Sequence record: NC_007818.1
Reading direction: 5' to 3' (one strand)
DNA length: 6,068 nt
Origin: Escherichia phage ID21
In this document: positions 1 to 6,068 of the stretch, one piece after another
Numbering within the stretch: position 1 is the first letter of the stretch
How the letters are laid out: each line of letters opens with the position of its first letter
Notes under the pieces: model-generated
Seen by the model: only the letters and a program-made list of their open reading frames with translations
The model's database searches: none
What the model was told of the DNA's origin: nothing
Made by a program: the position numbers and the translations under genes

Positions 1-66
1 TTGTTGACATTCCCTAAATCCTTATGAGACTCTTGCTTCAGCGAAATGACGCAGGAGTCTTTGCTT

Positions 67-435
67 ATGAAACCCGCACATCGCTTAACCCATCCGGTTC
101 TCGGTTCTTGGTTGTTTAAGTGTCCTGTTTATATCCGTTACGAACACCTTCATCATGGTCGTCTTATTAAGGTTCGTGCTGTTCGCGATTTATCCCCTCG
201 CCAACAGCTTATTGCTAACCCTAAAAATTGCTTTGACGTTGTTATTGCTGAGATTGATGTTACTTATGGCTCCCTCACTTGGTTTGATTATGAGCATGAG
301 GAATATGACGAGTTTGAGCCTGATGTTATAAAAGGCCTCGTTAACTATATTGAAATCCCTCATGTTATCCGTTCTGAGGAAGATCCTTCTGTTGATATTG
401 ATGATATGGATTGGCTTTATGAAATTGCGGAGTAA
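67..435 (+). CDS. Hypothetical protein (122 aa; 129 aa if started at in-frame ATG 46) with basic N-terminal half and strongly acidic C-terminal half, encoded in the expanded H-A intergenic region
   Basis: ORF track 46..435. AGGAG at 53-57 lies 9 nt upstream of ATG 67. Third codon positions are predominantly T (CGT, GTT, GAT, CCT, ATT), as in the capsid and scaffold genes. No similarity to any phiX174 protein I can recall. Confidence 0.45.
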   Translation: MKPAHRLTHPVLGSWLFKCPVYIRYEHLHHGRLIKVRAVRDLSPRQQLIANPKNCFDVVIAEIDVTYGSLTWFDYEHEEYDEFEPDVIKGLVNYIEIPHVIRSEEDPSVDIDDMDWLYEIAE

Positions 436-438
436 ATT

Positions 439-528
439 ATGGAAACTGTTATCGGAAAACTTATTGCTCTGGCTGTTGTTGCTCTTATGCTGTATGGAAT
501 TGCCCGTTTGATTCGGAGGTTTCCGTGA
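439..528 (+). CDS. Hypothetical 29-aa hydrophobic peptide (METVIGKLIALAVVALMLYGIARLIRRFP), likely single-pass membrane peptide
   Basis: ATG 439 lies 3 nt after the stop of the upstream ORF (TAA 433-435), with GGAG at 429-432 six nt upstream. A 17-residue hydrophobic core is followed by RLIRR. Below the size cut-off of the supplied ORF track; translated manually. Confidence 0.3.
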   Translation: METVIGKLIALAVVALMLYGIARLIRRFP

Positions 529-701
529 AATATTTTAGTTTGGTAGATGAACATTATGCTTACTGCCCTGATACAAGGATTTTGCACATCACTCGTAGTC
601 GTGTTTCTGACCCTCGTTATGAGCGTCGCTTTCTTACTGATGAGGAGCATTTTGCACTTTTGGATTGGTTAAAAAATCGCCCAACTTATATTAATTCTTG
701 A
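525..701 (+). CDS. Hypothetical 58-aa protein, GTG start overlapping upstream stop (GTGA)
   Basis: GGAGG at 515-519 lies 5 nt upstream of GTG 525, whose last two bases overlap the TGA stop (526-528) of the preceding peptide. T-rich third codon positions and four CGT Arg codons match the phage coding style. No in-frame ATG, so it depends on the GTG start. Stop TGA 699-701 sits inside the -35 of the gene A promoter. Confidence 0.3.
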   Translation: MKYFSLVDEHYAYCPDTRILHITRSRVSDPRYERRFLTDEEHFALLDWLKNRPTYINS

Positions 702-727
702 CAGGCCTTTAAAATACCCTCTATATT
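698..727 (+). promoter_or_regulatory. Sigma70-type promoter upstream of gene A (P_A candidate): TTGACA(698-703)-18 nt-TATATT(722-727)
   Basis: Perfect -35 hexamer and 5/6 match to TATAAT with an 18-nt spacer, about 35 nt upstream of the A start codon. phiX174 also has a promoter immediately upstream of A. Confidence 0.5.
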
Positions 728-757
728 GCCCTCATAGTTTCACTACGAGGGCTTTTT
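728..757 (+). terminator. Intrinsic-terminator-like hairpin (10-bp stem with one A.C mismatch, 5-nt loop) followed by TTTTT, between the P_A -10 and the A start codon
   Basis: GCCCTCATAG (728-737), loop TTTCA (738-742), CTACGAGGGC (743-752), then T5 (753-757). Position is analogous to a terminator after gene H (T_H) that I recall for phiX174. Confidence 0.4.
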
Positions 758-760
758 CGC

Positions 761-2245
761 ATGGCTACTGAAATCTTCTCTGATGTTGTTAAGTCTGTTT
801 GGTCGCACGCTACGGCTAAGCATTCTCATCTTCGTATGGCTGTGCAGGTTGATAACCGTAGTCGTCTTCTTTCTGATTTGGTTTACCAGCTGGAAAAGCG
901 CCTCTCTGAAGAGACTCATCTGGATGATGAGACTTATGCTCTTTATGAATCTCAAACTGGTCTCTTGGAGGACCATATGGCGCTGGTTCGGAAGTGTGCT
1001 GCCCAACTTGATAATAGTAACACTATAGACCACCGTACTCCTTTGGACTCCGAATGTGTTTTCCTCTTTGAGATGATTTGCCCCGGTGTTCGCTACGGTA
1101 AAACATTGAATTCTCTTTGGACCAAGTATGTTGCCCAGTGGCCTGAGAAGTTGATTCGTCAGGAGCTTGATATGGTTAAGCCTTTATCCTTTAAGGATGA
1201 GGTTGCCAAGTACATGGAGAAAATGCAGGAAAAGACACGCAAAAATCGCATGACTCAGAAAGTAATTAATGAGATGCGTATTGCTCACCAGAAAGGCTGG
1301 TTCTTCGTATTTGATACGTTGACCCTTGCCGATGACCGTTTGCAGGCTTTTAATGAAAACCCAAATGCTCTTCGTGATTATTTCAGGACTGTTGGTCGAG
1401 CTGTTCTGCGCGCTGAAGGCCGCTCGGTTAAGGATTCCTACAACGACTGCTATCGCTATCTTTGTGTGCCGGAGTTTGGAGGTCAGCATGGCCGTCTTCA
1501 TTGGCACGTTGTGCATATGGTGCGGACTCTTCCTTTGGGAAGTCACGACCCTAATTTCGGTCGCAAGGTACGTAATTATCGCCAGATTAACTCGTTCCGT
1601 GGCATGTGGCCTTATGGCTTCACGCAACCGATAGCTGTACGCTATCAACATGATGCTTATTCTCGCAAAGGTTGGCTGTGGCATGTTGACAAATCAGGAA
1701 AAGCAATGCAGAGTAAGCCTTATCAGGCGGTCGCATGGTATGTGACCAAGTATGTGGCTAAGCAGTCTGACCAGCGTCAGAAAGCTATTACCGAGAGACA
1801 AAAGAAATGCAAGAATCCACTTATGGCAATATGTCTGAAAAAGGAATTCAGAGTTCGCAGCAGCCGGAAGCTCGGAATGGAGTTGCCGTCGATGGCGCAT
1901 CTCAGCAACAAGGTACTTCTGGAACTGAGTCGAATCAGCTTCGATTCCAGCCCTCTGTATCAGATAGTGAAAGAGAACGCCAAAAAGCAATTGACCTTGA
2001 ACATCGGCGCGCTGCCTTTACACGTCATTTTGGATGTGCGCCCGGAAGTGAGAAGTATGTTGAAAAATATCCGTCGTTTGATGAAAAAGACACCCGAGTT
2101 CAATTGGCAGAGTTCTATCGCTTCAATGACGGTCACCTTAAAAAATGGGGATATTTCTAATGAAGCACGTCAATACATTATTGATGCAGGAATTACGCCT
2201 TCTGATTTGCGAGCTAAAGCGACTCAAACTTTCGGCGGTAAGTGA
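761..2245 (+). CDS. A: Replication initiation protein A (rolling-circle HUH endonuclease), 494 aa
   Basis: ORF track 761..2245. Contains AWYVTKYVAK with two tyrosines (Y327, Y331) matching the phiX174 gpA active-site YVAKYVNK motif as I recall it, plus an HUH-like LHWHVVH. Central and C-terminal regions align with recalled phiX174 gpA (GWFFVFDTLTLADDRL, NPNALRDYFR, DPNFGRKVRN). Contains the origin at 1004-1033. Confidence 0.95.
   Translation: MATEIFSDVVKSVWSHATAKHSHLRMAVQVDNRSRLLSDLVYQLEKRLSEETHLDDETYALYESQTGLLEDHMALVRKCAAQLDNSNTIDHRTPLDSECVFLFEMICPGVRYGKTLNSLWTKYVAQWPEKLIRQELDMVKPLSFKDEVAKYMEKMQEKTRKNRMTQKVINEMRIAHQKGWFFVFDTLTLADDRLQAFNENPNALRDYFRTVGRAVLRAEGRSVKDSYNDCYRYLCVPEFGGQHGRLHWHVVHMVRTLPLGSHDPNFGRKVRNYRQINSFRGMWPYGFTQPIAVRYQHDAYSRKGWLWHVDKSGKAMQSKPYQAVAWYVTKYVAKQSDQRQKAITERQKKCKNPLMAICLKKEFRVRSSRKLGMELPSMAHLSNKVLLELSRISFDSSPLYQIVKENAKKQLTLNIGALPLHVILDVRPEVRSMLKNIRRLMKKTPEFNWQSSIASMTVTLKNGDISNEARQYIIDAGITPSDLRAKATQTFGGK
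1004..1033 (+). other. Viral (+) strand origin of rolling-circle replication; predicted gpA nick between G1010 and A1011
   Basis: CAACTTGATAATAGTAACACTATAGACCAC matches the phiX174 30-nt origin CAACTTG/ATATTAATAACACTATAGACCAC (recalled) at 27 of 30 positions; the three differences are in the AT-rich middle. Confidence 0.85.
1214..2245 (+). CDS. A*: A* protein: in-frame internal restart of gene A (start uncertain: ATG 1214, 1223 or 1250)
   Basis: phiX174 makes A* from an internal in-frame ATG about 25 residues before the conserved GWF motif. Here in-frame ATGs lie at 1214, 1223 and 1250 before GWFFVF, and AAGGATGAGG (1193-1202) is an SD-like element upstream of 1214. Confidence 0.45.
   Translation: MEKMQEKTRKNRMTQKVINEMRIAHQKGWFFVFDTLTLADDRLQAFNENPNALRDYFRTVGRAVLRAEGRSVKDSYNDCYRYLCVPEFGGQHGRLHWHVVHMVRTLPLGSHDPNFGRKVRNYRQINSFRGMWPYGFTQPIAVRYQHDAYSRKGWLWHVDKSGKAMQSKPYQAVAWYVTKYVAKQSDQRQKAITERQKKCKNPLMAICLKKEFRVRSSRKLGMELPSMAHLSNKVLLELSRISFDSSPLYQIVKENAKKQLTLNIGALPLHVILDVRPEVRSMLKNIRRLMKKTPEFNWQSSIASMTVTLKNGDISNEARQYIIDAGITPSDLRAKATQTFGGK
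1807..2160 (+). CDS. B: Internal scaffolding protein B (117 aa), nested in gene A in another frame
   Basis: ORF track 1807..2160. C-terminus ...RVQLAEFYRFNDGHLKKWGYF parallels recalled phiX174 gpB ...RIQPAEFYRFHDAEVNTFGYF. Stop TAA 2158-2160 overlaps the K start as TAATG. Confidence 0.85.
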   Translation: MQESTYGNMSEKGIQSSQQPEARNGVAVDGASQQQGTSGTESNQLRFQPSVSDSERERQKAIDLEHRRAAFTRHFGCAPGSEKYVEKYPSFDEKDTRVQLAEFYRFNDGHLKKWGYF

Positions 2246-2980: not shown

Positions 2981-3055
2981 ATGAAAAAAGCTCGTCGTTC
3001 TCCTTCTCGTAAGAAAGGTGCTCGCCTCTGGTATGTAGGCGGTTCTCAATTTTAA
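2981..3055 (+). CDS. J: Small basic DNA-binding/packaging protein J (24 aa: MKKARRSPSRKKGARLWYVGGSQF)
   Basis: Translated manually (too short for the ORF track). ATG 2981 is 1 nt after the D stop. C-terminus GARLWYVGG matches phiX174 gpJ; the short 24-aa form suggests an alpha3-like phage. Confidence 0.85.
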   Translation: MKKARRSPSRKKGARLWYVGGSQF

Positions 3056-3060
3056 TTAAT

Positions 3061-3074
3061 GGGGCTTCGGCCCC
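3061..3074 (+). terminator. J-F intergenic hairpin GGGGC-UUCG-GCCCC (5-bp G/C stem, UUCG tetraloop); likely terminator/mRNA-stabilising element
   Basis: Perfect inverted repeat directly visible. The same GGGGCTTCGGCCCC occurs in the phiX174 J-F spacer as I recall. Followed by AAGGA SD and the F start. Confidence 0.55.
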
Positions 3075-3089
3075 TATAAGGATTCTTAA

Positions 3090-4373
3090 ATGTCAAACGT
3101 GCAAACTTCCGCTGAACGTATTCCTCACGACCTCTCTCATCTGGTTTTTGATGCAGGCAAAATTGGTCGTTTAAAGGTTGTTTCTTGGACTCCTGTTGTT
3201 GCAGGTGATTCTTTTGAGCTTGATATGATTGGCGCTATTCGCCTTTCTCCGCTTCGTCGTGGCCTTGCTGTTGACTCTCGCGTTGACCTGTTCACGTTTT
3301 ATGTTCCTCATCGTCATGTATATGGTGAGCAGTGGATTGAGTTTATGAAGCAAGGTGTTGATGCTGCTCCTTTGGCCCCTGTTCAGTGCTCTCGCGGTTG
3401 GGATAGTGCTCAGTATCTTGCTACCATTCCGTCTAGTAACCTGAAGGTTCCTAAGTTTCTTCATCAAGGTTACCTGAATATTTATAACAACTATTTTAAA
3501 GCTCCGTGGATGGATGATTTGACTTATGCCAATCCGTCCAATATGGAAGGTGAAGATGTTCGTTTTGGTGTTCGCGCATGTAACCTGAAGACTATCTGGA
3601 CTGCCCCTCTGCCGCCGGATACCGAGACCTCTCATTCTATGGAGACCGAGACTAACTCCATTGATATTATGGGTTTACAGGCTGCTTATGCTCAATTGCA
3701 TACTGAGCAGGAGCGTGATTACTTTATGACTCGTTATCGTGATATCGTTAACGAATTTGGAGGTAGCACGTCTTATGACGCGGATAATCGTCCTCTTCTG
3801 GTTATGCACTCTGAGTTTTGGGCTTCAGGCTATGACGTCGACGGCACCGACCAAAGCTCTCTCGGTCAGTTCTCCGGTCGTGTCCAGCAGACGTTTAAGC
3901 ATTCAGTACCGCGATTCTTCTGTCCTGAGCATGGCACTATGTTTACACTCGCATTGGTCCGCTTCCCGCCGACCCATGAGATGGAGATGCATTACTTAGT
4001 TGGTAAGGAAGATTTGACTTATACTGATTTGGCTTGTGACCCAGCTCTGATGGCTAACTTGCCTCCGCGTGAGGTTAATATGTCTCAGTTCTTCCATTCT
4101 GGAAGTACTAGTGCTAAGTTTAAGATCGCTGAAGGTCAGTGGTATCGTATGCAGCCTGACCGTGTTGCTCTGCCTTATAACTATCTTGATGGTTTCCCGT
4201 TCTATAGCGCGATTCCGTCTGATGATATTAAGCAGCGTGTTCTGGTTAATACTGATAACTACGATGAGGTTTTCCAGTCTATGCAACTTGCTCACTGGAA
4301 TATGCAGACTAAGTTTAACTGCACCATTTATCGTAATATGCCGACTACTCGTGATTCTATTATGACTTCTTGA
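3090..4373 (+). CDS. F: Major capsid protein F (427 aa)
   Basis: ORF track 3090..4373. Long near-identical stretches to recalled phiX174 gpF (LSPLRRGLA, YVPHRHVYGEQWI, YLNIYNNYFKAPWM, SYDADNRPLLVM, GYDVDGTDQ, PRFF.PEHGTMFTLALVRFPP, KFKIAEGQWYR, TTRDSIMTS). Confidence 0.97.
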   Translation: MSNVQTSAERIPHDLSHLVFDAGKIGRLKVVSWTPVVAGDSFELDMIGAIRLSPLRRGLAVDSRVDLFTFYVPHRHVYGEQWIEFMKQGVDAAPLAPVQCSRGWDSAQYLATIPSSNLKVPKFLHQGYLNIYNNYFKAPWMDDLTYANPSNMEGEDVRFGVRACNLKTIWTAPLPPDTETSHSMETETNSIDIMGLQAAYAQLHTEQERDYFMTRYRDIVNEFGGSTSYDADNRPLLVMHSEFWASGYDVDGTDQSSLGQFSGRVQQTFKHSVPRFFCPEHGTMFTLALVRFPPTHEMEMHYLVGKEDLTYTDLACDPALMANLPPREVNMSQFFHSGSTSAKFKIAEGQWYRMQPDRVALPYNYLDGFPFYSAIPSDDIKQRVLVNTDNYDEVFQSMQLAHWNMQTKFNCTIYRNMPTTRDSIMTS

Positions 4374-4379
4374 TTATGT

Positions 4380-4393
4380 GGGGCTTCGGCCCC
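4380..4393 (+). terminator. F-G intergenic hairpin GGGGC-UUCG-GCCCC, second copy of the J-F element
   Basis: Same 14-nt hairpin as 3061-3074, again followed by TTTAAGGATT and a start codon. Confidence 0.55.
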
Positions 4394-4409
4394 CTTTAAG
4401 GATTTGATT

Positions 4410-4955
4410 ATGTTTCAAGTTTATGTAGCTAAACATGTTGCTCCGTTCACTTCCATGAATCGTGCATTTTCTATCTCTCCTGCTGCTGACCCGCAGGTTG
4501 TTAACTCTGGCGAGATTGTTGCTGGTCGTTCTACCTTCCGCATTGCTTCTTCTATTGATTCAGCTTCCAATGGTAATGGTTTTGCATTCGTTCAGATGAT
4601 GGACCCTAACTCTCCTGATTCTCAGCAGGTCTTCTCTGTTGCTGCGTCACTGTCTTTTAGCGTTGACTCGAATTATGTCCCTTGCGTTGTTCGCTTTGAG
4701 AGTAGTGCTGCTCAGCCTGGTCGATTCGCTATTTCTAAGGCTGATTTTATTCCGGTTGAGGCCTCCGCCCTCTCTGCGCGCGCGCTTAGTGTTCGTGATT
4801 GTGTTACTGTTGATGTTAAGCCTCGCACTGAAGGTAATAACGTCTTTGTTGGTCTATTCCTGTCTTCTGCTGCCGCTAATGCTGGTAATGTTACTGGTGT
4901 TATTTCGATGGCTCAGGTTGACCATGAAGTTACAGCTTTGCAGCCTCTTAAATAA
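4410..4955 (+). CDS. G: Major spike protein G (181 aa)
   Basis: ORF track 4404..4955 (TTG); the ATG at 4410 with AAGGA 7 nt upstream is preferred. MFQ start, CVVRFESS, RDCVTVDVKPRTEGNNVFVG and C-terminal LQPLK match recalled phiX174 gpG. Confidence 0.9.
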   Translation: MFQVYVAKHVAPFTSMNRAFSISPAADPQVVNSGEIVAGRSTFRIASSIDSASNGNGFAFVQMMDPNSPDSQQVFSVAASLSFSVDSNYVPCVVRFESSAAQPGRFAISKADFIPVEASALSARALSVRDCVTVDVKPRTEGNNVFVGLFLSSAAANAGNVTGVISMAQVDHEVTALQPLK

Positions 4956-5090
4956 AAGGCCGCCGCACTCCCGGTTATATGCCTGCCCAGTGTAGGGCGG
5001 ACCGAGCCGTACGGAGATACCCGATAAACTAGGAACGTGGAAGGCGTTAGCCGCCTTCCCTCCTGCTAAGCCCAAAGGAGACTTTCAGCT
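4956..5090 (+). other. 135-nt GC-rich structured G-H intergenic region; candidate complementary (-) strand origin of the DnaG-primase-dependent type
   Basis: No credible ORF. Several stem-loops are visible (6-bp stem 4983-5000; CCGTACGG palindrome 5007-5014; perfect 8-bp stem 5039-5059). A CTG at 5063-5065 sits just 3' of the strongest hairpin. GC-rich unlike the T-rich coding regions. Confidence 0.4.
5039..5059 (+). other. Perfect hairpin GGAAGGCG-TTAGC-CGCCTTCC (8-bp stem, 5-nt loop)
   Basis: Inverted repeat read directly from the sequence. Not followed by a T-run, so not a canonical intrinsic terminator. Confidence 0.5.
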
Positions 5091-6068
5091 ATGTTAGGTG
5101 CCGTTGTAGGTGGTATTGCTTCAGCCTTAGCCGGTGGAGCCGCCTCTAAGTTATTTGGTGGCAAGTCTGCCCCTCAAGCCGCTACAGAGTCCGCTGGTCT
5201 ATCTAACGGTCAAGGTGTTATTGGTATGGACCAAGATGCCGGTATTCAGTCTGCTATTCAGGGTTCAAATGTCCCAAATGGTCAGATTCCTGCTCCTACT
5301 ACTACAGGTGGCGTTATGTCTGATGCTGGCAATATGATTAAGAATGCTGGTAAAGATTTGCTTGATGGTGTTATGACTGCTGGTAGTGACCGCGTTAAGC
5401 AGGCTTTGATTGATAAGTTAGGTGGCAATAATGCGAAGAAACAAGGACAAGCAACCCGTGATTACTTGGCTGCGGCCTTCCCTGAGCTCAACGCATGGGA
5501 GCGTGCTGGAGCTGGTGCTTCCGGCGCCGGCTTGGAATCTTCCAGTCAGGACCAACAGAAAGAATTGATGCGGATGCAGTTGGACAACCAGAAAGATATT
5601 GCGAAGATGCAGATGCAGAATAATTTGCAGATTGCAGGTATTCAGTCCGCTACTTCTCGTCAAAATACGAAGGATTCTGTTTATGCTCAGAATGAGATGC
5701 TTCAGTACAATCAGCGTGAGTCGCAAGCGCGTGTTGAGTCCATCCTTGCCAACACTGACCTTACGGCTAAACAGGCCACCCATGAAATTATGAGAATGGC
5801 CCTTACTCGTGCTCAGGAGACTGGTCAACACTTAACTAACTCCCAGGTTATGGCATTGGAGAAAAAGGTTTATGCAGAAATCGGAAAAATTCATCAGGAT
5901 ACTCAAAATGCTCGTTATGGTAGCTCTCAAGTTACTGCTGCGGCGAAAGATGTTACAAATATGATTTCTGATGCTGCTGGCGGTGTTGCCGATTGGGCTT
6001 CTCAGCAGTGGAATTCTTTCTTTAAAGATGGCAAGTCTAATGGTATTCCTCTCAATACCAGAAAATAA
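5091..6068 (+). CDS. H: Minor spike / DNA pilot protein H (325 aa)
   Basis: ORF track 5091..6068. Gly/Ala-rich N-terminus MLGAVVGGIASALAGGAASKLFGG, TRDYLAAAFPELNAWERAGA, IAGIQSATSRQNTKD.VYAQNEML and RYGSS match recalled phiX174 gpH. SD AAAGGAG 5074-5080. The stop codon is the last triplet of the window. Confidence 0.93.
   Translation: MLGAVVGGIASALAGGAASKLFGGKSAPQAATESAGLSNGQGVIGMDQDAGIQSAIQGSNVPNGQIPAPTTTGGVMSDAGNMIKNAGKDLLDGVMTAGSDRVKQALIDKLGGNNAKKQGQATRDYLAAAFPELNAWERAGAGASGAGLESSSQDQQKELMRMQLDNQKDIAKMQMQNNLQIAGIQSATSRQNTKDSVYAQNEMLQYNQRESQARVESILANTDLTAKQATHEIMRMALTRAQETGQHLTNSQVMALEKKVYAEIGKIHQDTQNARYGSSQVTAAAKDVTNMISDAAGGVADWASQQWNSFFKDGKSNGIPLNTRK

What the first reader, a model, noticed from the sequence alone, without database searches (positions are those of the whole stretch)
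698..760. Gene A promoter followed by a terminator-like hairpin whose 5' arm lies just downstream of the -10 element
TTGACA-18-TATATT is directly followed by a 10-bp G/C-rich stem (728-752) and T5 run (753-757) ending 3 nt before the A start. If transcription starts about 7 nt after the -10, P_A transcripts begin inside the 5' arm and cannot form the full hairpin, whereas read-through transcripts from upstream (H and the cassette) would. That would terminate upstream transcripts while letting P_A transcripts through, which could keep A expression low and independent. This is comparable to the T_H arrangement I recall for phiX174.
Basis: partly seen in the sequence, partly recalled or inferred. 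Interest (0 to 1): 0.5.

Follow-up and report, generated by a model that had tools for sequence, protein, structure and literature searches.

The report
Overlapping gene A promoter and terminator
This is the alpha3-type phage's version of the overlapping promoter and terminator already known upstream of gene A in phiX174: it should stop and translationally silence transcripts arriving from upstream while letting gene A's own transcripts through, so it is real and well built but ordinary for this phage group.

Summary
TTGACA (698-703), an 18-nt spacer and TATATT (722-727) directly abut a hairpin at 728-752. T5 follows at 753-757 and the gene A ATG at 761. One correction: the stem is not a clean 10 bp. 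It is 6 G/C-rich pairs, an A734·C746 mismatch, then 3-4 A/U pairs (-13 to -14 kcal/mol).

The composite is not chance (0 of 1000 dinucleotide shuffles). In 18 alphatrevirus sequences the conserved positions coincide with the functional motifs, and two stem pairs show compensatory changes.

The same layout, with the -10 abutting a GCC(T/C)(C/T)C arm, occurs in phiX174 and G4-like phages. In phiX174 the annotated start site (3962) is the 7th hairpin nucleotide, and RNA-seq shows a net ~70% drop across 'pA-T_H'.

- Gene A's Shine-Dalgarno (GAGGG, 747-751) is the 3' arm. It is fully paired in read-through RNA and partly free in promoter-initiated RNA.
- A stronger hairpin sits right after gene H (26-61).
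- Phage NC35 has lost the -10 and the 5' arm in one 29-bp deletion.

Verdict: real, interpretation supported by homology, a new member of a known kind, low to moderate interest.

The parts
525..701 (+). Last gene of the H-A 'cassette' (58 aa, GTG start). Its TGA stop (699-701) lies inside the -35 hexamer. This is the gene whose transcripts the hairpin/T-run would end.
   Evidence: The ORF is intact in 17 of 19 alphatrevirus sequences. Variable sites by codon position are 15/10/33. Of 40 variable codons, 23 are synonymous-only in this frame, against 6 and 3 in the other two frames. No PHROG or Pfam family matches.
698..703 (+). -35 hexamer TTGACA of the gene A promoter (P_A)
   Evidence: part of the only 11/12 match in the window. 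Invariant in 17 of 18 relatives; phiK has TTGGCA. Same hexamer as phiX174 pA at 3927-3932.
704..721 (+). 18-nt promoter spacer
   Evidence: The length is conserved but the sequence is free to vary: 15 of 18 columns are variable.
722..727 (+). -10 hexamer TATATT, abutting the hairpin with no gap
   Evidence: Conserved; ID32 has TATAGT. The -10 abuts the hairpin's first G in phiX174, G4, ID52-, ID2- and ID18-like phages too.
728..737 (+). 5' arm of the hairpin (GCCCTCATAG). The outer six bases also form the G/C-rich stretch between the -10 and the start site.
   Evidence: The only changes in the outer arm are C-to-T, giving U·G wobbles.
734..734 (+). Predicted P_A transcription start (plausible range 733-737). 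It is the mismatched A, the 7th nucleotide of the 5' arm.
   Evidence: Inference: 7 nt after the -10, and pyrimidine-purine (C733-A734). Position 734 is a purine in all 18 relatives. phiX174's annotated start 3962 is likewise 7 nt after its -10 and the 7th nucleotide of its hairpin.
738..742 (+). Hairpin loop (TTTCA)
   Evidence: All 5 columns are variable among relatives.
743..752 (+). 3' arm of the hairpin (CTACGAGGGC)
   Evidence: 93.8% of cells are paired across 16 distinct sequences, against 34-56% when the partner is slid. Two pairs carry changes on both sides.
747..751 (+). Shine-Dalgarno of gene A (GAGGG), embedded in the 3' arm
   Evidence: Read from the sequence: 9-10 nt before ATG 761. 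Invariant. Probability unpaired is 0.000-0.005 in RNAs starting at or before 728, and 0.23-0.50 in RNAs starting at 733-737. In phiX174 GGAGG (3969-3973) sits in the same place, and 63% of the hairpin's detrimental mutations fall in that stem.
753..757 (+). T5 run (U-tract of the terminator)
   Evidence: T4 to T6 in relatives. T6 in phiX174 and T4 in G4.
761..2245 (+). Gene A (replication initiator), 494 aa
   Evidence: Annotated gpA starts at the homologous ATG in 11 relatives.
4..69 (+). Upstream sister module directly after the gene H stop: TTGACA 4-9, hairpin 26-61 with AGGAG (53-57) in the 3' arm, T-rich tail 60-66, and ATG 67 of the first cassette ORF.
   Evidence: -19.8 kcal/mol. Conserved in 14 alphatrevirus sequences, 95% paired, but with no covariation. 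It is the first hairpin that transcripts leaving H meet.

Best explanation
Proposed mechanism: a combined promoter, terminator and ribosome-binding-site module, the alphatrevirus counterpart of phiX174 'pA-T_H'.

Anatomy. A near-consensus sigma-70 promoter (698-727) directly abuts a hairpin (728-752) and T5 run (753-757), 3 nt before the gene A start.

Read-through transcripts. RNA polymerases arriving from upstream carry late transcripts that have read through H and the three cassette genes. They transcribe the whole hairpin and then the U-run. Many should terminate there. Those that continue carry gene A's Shine-Dalgarno locked in the stem.

Promoter-initiated transcripts. Polymerases that initiate at P_A start about 7 nt after the -10, at A734, after the six G/C pairs of the 5' arm. 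Their RNA cannot form the hairpin. They pass the U-run and carry an accessible ribosome binding site.

Net effect. Transcription is 'reset' at the start of gene A. A expression then depends on a single promoter rather than on the much stronger late transcription.

Shown here: the motifs, their significance against shuffles, their conservation and compensatory changes, and the folding difference between the two RNA classes.

Inferred from phiX174: the start site, actual termination, and the effect on gene A expression.
For: Anatomy and statistics. The composite occurs in 0 of 1000 shuffles.

Conservation follows the functional motifs.

Structure:
- 93.8% of stem cells are paired.
- T735A+A745T is compensatory in the five distinct ID32-type sequences.
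- C746T (ID62 and the ID32 type) and A734G (St-1) repair the A·C mismatch.
- All outer-arm changes are C-to-T, giving U·G. That pair is tolerated only on the + sense strand.

Same architecture in three genera:
- phiX174: TTGACA-17-TTTCAT|GCCTCCAA-ATC-TTGGAGGC-T6-ATG.
- G4: TTGACT-18-TAATAT|GCCTCC-8 nt-GGAGGC-T4-C-ATG.
- Between genera, stem pairs 4 and 5 are swapped (T-A/C-G against C-G/T-A).

phiX174 data:
- The annotated start at 3962 is the 7th hairpin nucleotide.
- RNA-seq shows a 0.29-fold net change, about 70% block, across pA-T_H, which the authors describe as overlapping.

Folding:
- The hairpin is -10 to -17 kcal/mol in full and 0 to -1 from nucleotide 7, in all 11 variants.
- The Shine-Dalgarno is unpaired with probability 0.00 in read-through RNA and 0.23-0.50 in P_A RNA.

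Natural deletion: NC35 lacks the spacer, the -10 and the outer 5' arm through one 29-bp deletion. No promoter-like or terminator-like site is left in its first 800 nt. Losing both halves together fits the idea that they work as a unit.
Against: - There is no transcript mapping for any alpha3-group phage. The literature search found none.
- The U-tract is only 5 long and is followed by CGC. The stem has a mismatch. Termination may therefore be partial, as it is for all phiX174 terminators.
- In the phiX174 mutational scan only 13% of the hairpin's detrimental mutations lie in the 5' stem, against 63% in the 3' stem. Much of the 3'-arm conservation is therefore explained by the ribosome binding site alone, and hairpin formation has little fitness effect in laboratory growth.
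- Compensatory evidence rests on few independent events: 2 of 10 pairs, and the count of pairs with changes on both sides was reached by 285 of 500 shuffles.
- NC35 shows the whole module is dispensable for a viable phage.
- A published phiX174 model treats pA transcripts as being cut off by T_H.
Confidence: 0.75

Rival explanations
1. Attenuator reading. P_A transcripts do contain a functional terminator, and most of them are cut off at the T-run about 20-25 nt after initiation. This, rather than escape, is what keeps gene A expression low.
For: [quoted passage not shown] Net transcript level falls across the element.
Against: - The -10 hexamer abuts the first base of the stem in all three genera, so a start upstream of the stem is geometrically implausible.
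- The annotated phiX174 start (3962) is inside the stem.
- RNA starting from nucleotide 7 has 0 to -1 kcal/mol of hairpin.
- The net fall is explained equally well by termination of incoming transcripts outweighing weak initiation, which is how the RNA-seq authors read it.
Confidence: 0.07
2. Mainly post-transcriptional element. The selected function of the hairpin would be to mask gene A's Shine-Dalgarno on polycistronic read-through RNA, and/or to protect the 3' end of upstream mRNAs from exonucleases. Termination would be weak and incidental.
For: - The Shine-Dalgarno lies in the 3' arm in every lineage.
- It is 100% paired in read-through RNA.
- phiX174 terminators are leaky and are linked to mRNA stability.
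- The 3' stem is the mutation-sensitive half in phiX174.
Against: - A conserved T4-T6 run sits directly after the stem in all lineages. Masking does not need it.
- In phiX174 this is the strongest of the four terminators.
- This reading complements the main explanation rather than excluding it.
Confidence: 0.13
3. A structure of the single-stranded viral DNA (replication or packaging signal), or a chance palindrome next to a chance promoter match.
For: The virion strand is single-stranded and would form the same hairpin. Other intergenic hairpins of these phages serve DNA replication: in phiX174 the F-G hairpin is a PriA site.
Against: - 0 of 1000 shuffles reproduce the composite.
- Conservation follows the -35, -10, Shine-Dalgarno and T-run exactly.
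- Its position and orientation fit transcription signals.
- NC35 lacks the 5' arm and is a viable isolate.
- Five distinct sequences carry U·G wobbles, which are weak in DNA.
Confidence: 0.03

Closest known systems
phiX174 pA-T_H combined promoter/terminator element (H-A intergenic region, nt 3927-3980)
   Same: - Position immediately upstream of gene A.
- Consensus -35 TTGACA.
- -10 abutting a G/C-rich hairpin.
- Gene A's Shine-Dalgarno in the 3' arm.
- T-run, then ATG.
- The 7th hairpin nucleotide is a purine, which is the annotated start site in phiX174.
   Different: - The stem is longer (10 positions with an A·C mismatch, against 8 perfect pairs), with a 5-nt loop against 3.
- T5+CGC against T6.
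- The -10 is near-consensus (TATATT, 18-nt spacer). phiX174 has a degenerate TTTCAT with a TATG extension and a 17-nt spacer.
- It lies about 760 nt from the H stop rather than 10 nt, because three extra genes lie in between. It follows the 58-aa cassette gene, not H.
G4-group (Gequatrovirus) H-A junction
   Same: TTGACT-18-TAATAT directly abuts GCCTCC...GGAGGC, then T4 and ATG. The spacer is 18 nt, as in the window.
   Different: Only a 6-bp stem with an 8-nt loop, so a start at nucleotide 7-8 removes the entire 5' arm. No cassette between H and A.
Protection of IS10/IS50 transposase genes from outside transcription (recalled from memory: Davis, Simons & Kleckner 1985; Krebs/Schulz & Reznikoff; not checked with the tools)
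   Same: Same logic. Transcripts entering from outside contain both arms of an inverted repeat that sequesters the translation start. The element's own promoter starts inside the repeat, so its transcripts stay translatable.
   Different: These are unrelated sequences and systems. In the IS elements the hairpin is not followed by a U-tract and is not described as a terminator. This is a functional analogy only.
Canonical Rho-independent (intrinsic) terminators of E. coli
   Same: G/C-rich stem closed next to a U-run, -13 kcal/mol, short loop.
   Different: It is overlapped by a promoter whose start lies inside the stem. It has an internal mismatch and a short 5-U tract. It failed the tool's strict stem rule.

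Membership tests
Bullavirinae pA-T_H overlapped promoter-terminator module | [quoted passage not shown] | tested here: met
   The element spans 698-757 and the A ATG is at 761. gpA is annotated at the homologous ATG in relatives.
Bullavirinae pA-T_H overlapped promoter-terminator module | Sigma-70 -35/-10 pair whose -10 hexamer directly abuts the first base of the hairpin | tested here: met
   The -10 ends at 727 and the stem starts at 728. The same zero-gap junction is found in phiX174, G4, ID52-, ID2- and ID18-like phages and is described for phiX174.
Bullavirinae pA-T_H overlapped promoter-terminator module | G/C-rich hairpin whose 3' arm carries gene A's Shine-Dalgarno, followed by a T-run | tested here: met
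   GAGGG 747-751 lies in the 3' arm and T5 is at 753-757. phiX174 has GGAGG 3969-3973 in its 3' stem.
Bullavirinae pA-T_H overlapped promoter-terminator module | Transcription from pA starts inside the hairpin | not testable with these tools
   Only predicted (A734, 7 nt after the -10). The phiX174 RefSeq record annotates 3962, the 7th hairpin nucleotide.
Bullavirinae pA-T_H overlapped promoter-terminator module | Net drop of transcript level across the element (termination of incoming transcripts) | not testable with these tools
   Measured only in phiX174: 0.29-fold, about 70% block.
Intrinsic (Rho-independent) terminator | Stable G/C-rich stem-loop ending within 2 nt of a U-tract | tested here: met
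   -13.0 to -14.2 kcal/mol, z = -3.2. The stem ends at 752 and the T-run starts at 753.
   Not reported by the scan, presumably because the A·C mismatch splits the stem. A folding-based rule finds it as the stronger of only 2 sites on the + strand.
Intrinsic (Rho-independent) terminator | Base pairing maintained by evolution | tested here: met
   93.8% paired, 2 pairs with changes on both sides, covariation score reached by 0 of 500 shuffles. Few independent events, however.
Sigma-70 promoter | Match to TTGACA-(16-18)-TATAAT | tested here: met
   11 of 12, the best and only such match in the window. 4.6% of shuffles contain any 11/12 match.
Rfam RNA families (any curated structured RNA) | Covariance-model match at 698-760 | tested here: not met
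   No match in the region, even at E up to 1.

The most novel reading that the evidence does not exclude
Alphatreviruses may carry two copies of the same compact module ('-35 / hairpin holding a Shine-Dalgarno / T-run / ATG'), one on each side of a ~690-nt three-gene cassette (window 4-69 and 698-763).

On this reading the ancestral overlapped pA-T_H unit was duplicated or re-created when the cassette entered the H-A junction, and the two copies then divided the labour. The copy next to H kept a strong terminator hairpin (-20 kcal/mol). It may still fire weakly: it reads TTGACA-18-GACTCT preceded by TATG-N, as in phiX174, which would place a start in its loop. The copy next to A kept the strong promoter and a weaker, mismatched hairpin.

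The module would then be a reusable insulator that lets genes be inserted into a circular, read-through transcription system without disturbing the dosage of gene A. NC35's single deletion of the -10 plus the 5' arm would be the reverse experiment.
Probability: 0.25. Interest if true: 0.45.

Novelty: new member of a known kind. Interest (0 to 1): 0.27.

Why it matters
Mostly as confirmation. The overlapped pA/T_H design of phiX174 is not a quirk of one phage. It is a conserved architecture in all three genera of phiX-like coliphages: the -10 always abuts the stem, and the start site is always predicted just past the G/C-rich arm.

This has one practical consequence. Quantitative models of phiX174 expression that let T_H act on pA-initiated transcripts are probably mis-specified. 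Engineered or refactored genomes that separate pA from T_H would change both termination and gene A translation.

The alpha3-group sequences add natural compensatory variants and a natural co-deletion (NC35). These could be used directly as test constructs.

Tried and rejected
- Rfam scan of the whole window at E up to 1: nothing at the site.
- The tool's strict terminator rule missed the hairpin, so I wrote a folding-based rule and a shuffle test.
- Literature on alpha3-group transcription: no paper held. The Rokyta et al. 2006 paper was not available under the id I tried. A search for the older phiX174 mRNA papers returned only unrelated hits. The classical statement that the A mRNA starts inside the hairpin therefore rests on the RefSeq feature and my memory.
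- NC_001420 (G4) is not in the collection, so I used G4 isolate OR492646.
- Module 1 against module 2 homology: global alignment scores are only marginally above shuffles (p about 0.01-0.04). They are driven by shared motifs, so common descent cannot be separated from convergence.
- Covariation in the upstream hairpin 26-61: none, because its pairs show no change on both sides.
- PHROGs and Pfam for the three cassette ORFs: no family.
- Metagenome and IMG/VR scans added only 7 new alphatrevirus variants. IMG/VR added 5 G4-group loci and 1 phiX174 locus, so the covariation sample stays small.
- I considered and rejected a DNA-level role and a bidirectional terminator. On the minus strand the hairpin is followed by AATATAG, which is not a T-run.

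Full report
WHAT THE WINDOW IS

The 6068 bases are a complete circular genome of an alpha3-like microvirus (Microviridae, Bullavirinae, Alphatrevirus). It is linearised immediately after the stop codon of gene H.
- The best database match is phage ID32 at 93% identity. WA13, NC3, NC35 and NC29 are at about 92%, and alpha3 is at 84%.
- Gene order is A (761-2245), B, K, C, D, E, J, F, G, H (5091-6068), as in annotated relatives.
- Positions 1-760 are the long H-A region typical of this genus.
- The genome is a mosaic. Positions 401-800 are 96-98.5% identical to alpha3 and 83-87% to ID32. Most of the rest is ID32-like. The element under study therefore came in with an alpha3-type segment.

THE OBSERVATION

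- TTGACA 698-703
- 18-nt spacer
- TATATT 722-727
- 5' arm GCCCTCATAG 728-737
- loop 738-742
- 3' arm CTACGAGGGC 743-752
- T5 753-757
- CGC
- ATG 761

The one inaccuracy is the '10-bp stem', because A734 faces C746. The fold is six G/C-rich pairs, a 1x1 internal loop and three to four A/U pairs. It scores -14.2 kcal/mol in context, z = -3.2, and -13.0 for the bare hairpin.

The promoter is the only 11-of-12 match on either strand of the window. In 1000 dinucleotide-preserving shuffles:
- 4.6% contained an 11/12 promoter;
- the mean number of hairpin+T-run sites was 0.27;
- none contained a promoter of at least 10/12 followed within 12 nt by such a site.

The consensus scan did not list the terminator, presumably because the mismatch breaks its perfect-stem rule.

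CONSERVATION WITHIN THE GENUS

I collected the region from 11 GenBank alphatreviruses, one dog-faeces genome, Lilleven, three IMG/VR contigs and four metagenome contigs. In the 18-sequence alignment (16 distinct rows), conservation follows the functional parts:

| Part | Variable columns |
|---|---|
| -35 | 1 of 6 |
| spacer | 15 of 18 |
| -10 | 2 of 7 |
| outer 5' arm | 2 of 6 |
| loop | 5 of 5 |
| outer 3' arm | 0 of 6 |
| T-run | length only (T4-T6) |
| 3-nt linker | 3 of 3 |

Evidence that the stem is maintained:
- 93.8% of stem cells form standard pairs, against 34-56% when the partner is slid by 1-3 columns.
- The ID32-type sequences (five distinct) carry T735A together with A745T.
- C746T (ID62 and the ID32 type) or A734G (St-1) closes the A·C mismatch.
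- One metagenome variant (L029) has a perfect 10-bp stem at -16.8 kcal/mol.
- The only changes in the outer 5' arm are C-to-T, giving U·G wobbles. Those would be A·C mismatches on the complementary strand, so the structure is selected in the + sense, and RNA is the simplest reading.

The number of independent events is small. The count of pairs with changes on both sides was reached by 285 of 500 shuffles.

COMPARISON WITH THE OTHER GENERA

- phiX174 reads TTGACA(3927-3932)-17 nt-TTTCAT(3950-3955)-GCCTCCAA-ATC-TTGGAGGC(3956-3974)-T6-ATG(3981).
- G4 reads TTGACT-18-TAATAT-GCCTCC-CATCAAAC-GGAGGC-TTTTC-ATG.
- ID52-, ID2- and ID18-like genomes follow the same plan.

In every case:
- the -10 abuts the first G of the stem;
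- the 5' arm begins GCC(T/C)(C/T)C;
- the 3' arm is a purine-rich Shine-Dalgarno;
- a T-run and the gene A ATG follow.

Between genera, stem pairs 4 and 5 are exchanged (T-A/C-G in phiX174 and G4, C-G/T-A here). Pairing and a Shine-Dalgarno-like 3' arm are both kept.

WHAT IS KNOWN EXPERIMENTALLY IN phiX174

- The RefSeq record annotates a transcription start at 3962. By the sequence this is 7 nt after the -10 and the 7th nucleotide of the hairpin.
[quoted passage not shown] They measure a net 0.29-fold change (about 70% block) and call it the strongest phiX174 terminator, one that 'resets' the transcriptional current before gene A.
- A 2026 complete-mutagenesis preprint confirms the -35, the degenerate -10 and its TATG extension as mutation-sensitive. 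[quoted passage not shown]
- pA transcripts are reported to be low largely because of mRNA instability.

MECHANISM PROPOSED FOR THIS WINDOW

Applying the phiX174 geometry, the P_A start is A734. It is preceded by C733, and position 734 is a purine in all 18 relatives.
- RNA beginning there lacks the six G/C pairs. The residual hairpin energy is 0 to -1 kcal/mol, against -10 to -17 for the full hairpin, in all 11 variants from the three genera.
- P_A transcripts should therefore pass the U-run. Transcripts arriving from upstream form the full hairpin directly before the U-run and should terminate in part.
Gene A's Shine-Dalgarno (GAGGG 747-751) is the 3' arm. Its bases are unpaired with probability 0.000-0.005 in RNAs that start at or before 728, and 0.23-0.50 in RNAs starting at 733-737. 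Read-through RNA that escapes termination should therefore translate gene A poorly.

The motifs, statistics, conservation and folding contrast are shown here. The start site, termination and masking are inferred.

WHAT ARRIVES FROM UPSTREAM

The H-A region is not empty. It holds three ORFs:
- 67-435;
- 439-528, a hydrophobic 29-mer whose stop overlaps the next start (GTGA);
- 525-701.

They are annotated as hypothetical proteins in phage Lilleven. The 58-aa ORF is intact in 17 of 19 sequences and shows clear coding constraint. Variable sites by codon position are 15/10/33, and 23 of 40 variable codons are synonymous-only, against 6 and 3 in the other frames. Its TGA stop is inside the -35 TTGACA. 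So the hairpin/T-run is also the 3' end signal of a real gene.

In addition, directly after the H stop there is a second, stronger hairpin (26-61, -19.8 kcal/mol):
- AGGAG sits in its 3' arm.
- A T-rich tail follows (TTTGCTT here, T6 in alpha3, St-1, NC3 and ID62), then ATG 67.
- A conserved TTGACA lies at 4-9, upstream of the hairpin.

It is 95% paired across 14 sequences but shows no compensatory change on both sides of any pair, so there is no covariation evidence. Transcripts leaving H meet this hairpin first.

A NATURAL DELETION

NC35 lacks 29 bp that remove the spacer, the -10 and the outer 5' arm in one step. No promoter-like or terminator-like site remains in its first 800 nt, and the remaining sequence has no significant structure. 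NC35 is a deposited complete phage genome.

This shows two things. The module is dispensable.

RIVAL EXPLANATIONS

1. Attenuator model. T_H would cut off pA transcripts, as a phiX174 simulation paper assumes. This is unlikely because the -10 abuts the stem and the annotated start lies inside it.
2. Mainly post-transcriptional role (Shine-Dalgarno masking, 3'-end protection). This is compatible with the data and partly included in my explanation. The conserved T-run, and T_H being the strongest phiX174 terminator, argue that termination is real.
3. DNA-level role or chance. The shuffle test, the conservation pattern, the U·G wobbles and NC35 argue against it.

COMPARISON AND NOVELTY

The element meets every sequence-level defining feature of the phiX174 pA-T_H module (see the membership table). 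The two functional features, start inside the stem and a drop in transcript level, cannot be tested with these tools.

Differences from phiX174:
- a near-consensus -10 with no TG extension;
- an 18-nt spacer;
- a longer, mismatched stem;
- T5+CGC instead of T6;
- a location after a three-gene cassette rather than directly after H.

No Rfam family covers it. The logic resembles the protection of IS10/IS50 transposase genes from outside transcription. That comparison is from memory and was not checked.

I class the element as a new member of a known kind. Interest is low to moderate. Its value lies in:
- showing the design is conserved across three genera;
- flagging that models applying T_H to pA transcripts are probably wrong;
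- pointing to the duplicated module and the NC35 deletion as ready-made tests.

Noticed in passing
window 4-69: A second '-35 / hairpin with Shine-Dalgarno / T-rich tail / ATG' module sits directly after the gene H stop. It comprises TTGACA 4-9, TATG 23-26, hairpin 26-61 (-19.8 kcal/mol) with AGGAG 53-57, tail 60-66 and ATG 67. From TT-TTGACA to ATG it is 69 nt, the same length as 695-763. It is conserved in 14 alphatreviruses but shows no covariation. Its similarity to module 2, phiX174 and G4 is only marginal (p 0.0005-0.04, driven by shared motifs).
   Followed up: partly
window 67-435, 439-528, 525-701: Three ORFs fill the H-A region, which is non-coding and under 70 nt long in phiX174 and G4. 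The 58-aa ORF shows strong coding constraint. The 29-aa ORF is hydrophobic, and its stop overlaps the next start (GTGA at 525-528). None has a PHROG or Pfam family. The stop codon of the 58-aa ORF is embedded in the P_A -35 hexamer, and in phiK the TTGGCA variant removes that stop.
   Followed up: partly
L012 (phage NC35) 700-730, equivalent to window about 704-732: A 29-bp deletion removes the promoter spacer, the -10 and the outer 5' arm of the hairpin together. No sigma-70-like promoter or terminator-like site remains upstream of gene A in this deposited genome.
   Followed up: yes
window 401-800 against the rest: The genome is a recombinant mosaic. Positions 401-800 are 96-98.5% identical to alpha3 but only 83-87% to ID32. 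Positions 3001-5400 are 83-99% ID32-like and 48-80% alpha3-like. No record in the phage collection exceeds 93% identity overall.
   Followed up: partly
window 3058-3075 and 4377-4395: Two near-identical GGGGCTTCGGCCCC hairpins (GNRA-like/UUCG loop) follow genes J and F. These are the positions of the phiX174 T_J and T_F terminators. Neither is followed by a T-run of 4 or more, so my terminator rule did not pick them up.
   Followed up: no
window 4956-5090: The long G/C-rich G-H intergenic region has several potential hairpins (for example GGAAGGCGTTAGCCGCCTTCC around 5039-5059). From memory, this is where alpha3-group phages carry the primase-dependent complementary-strand origin. Not examined.
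   Followed up: no
literature: A published phiX174 expression model lets T_H terminate most pA-initiated transcripts. The annotated start (3962) lies inside the T_H stem, which would make pA transcripts immune. The fitted pA and T_H strengths in that model are reported as strongly coupled and poorly determined.
   Followed up: partly
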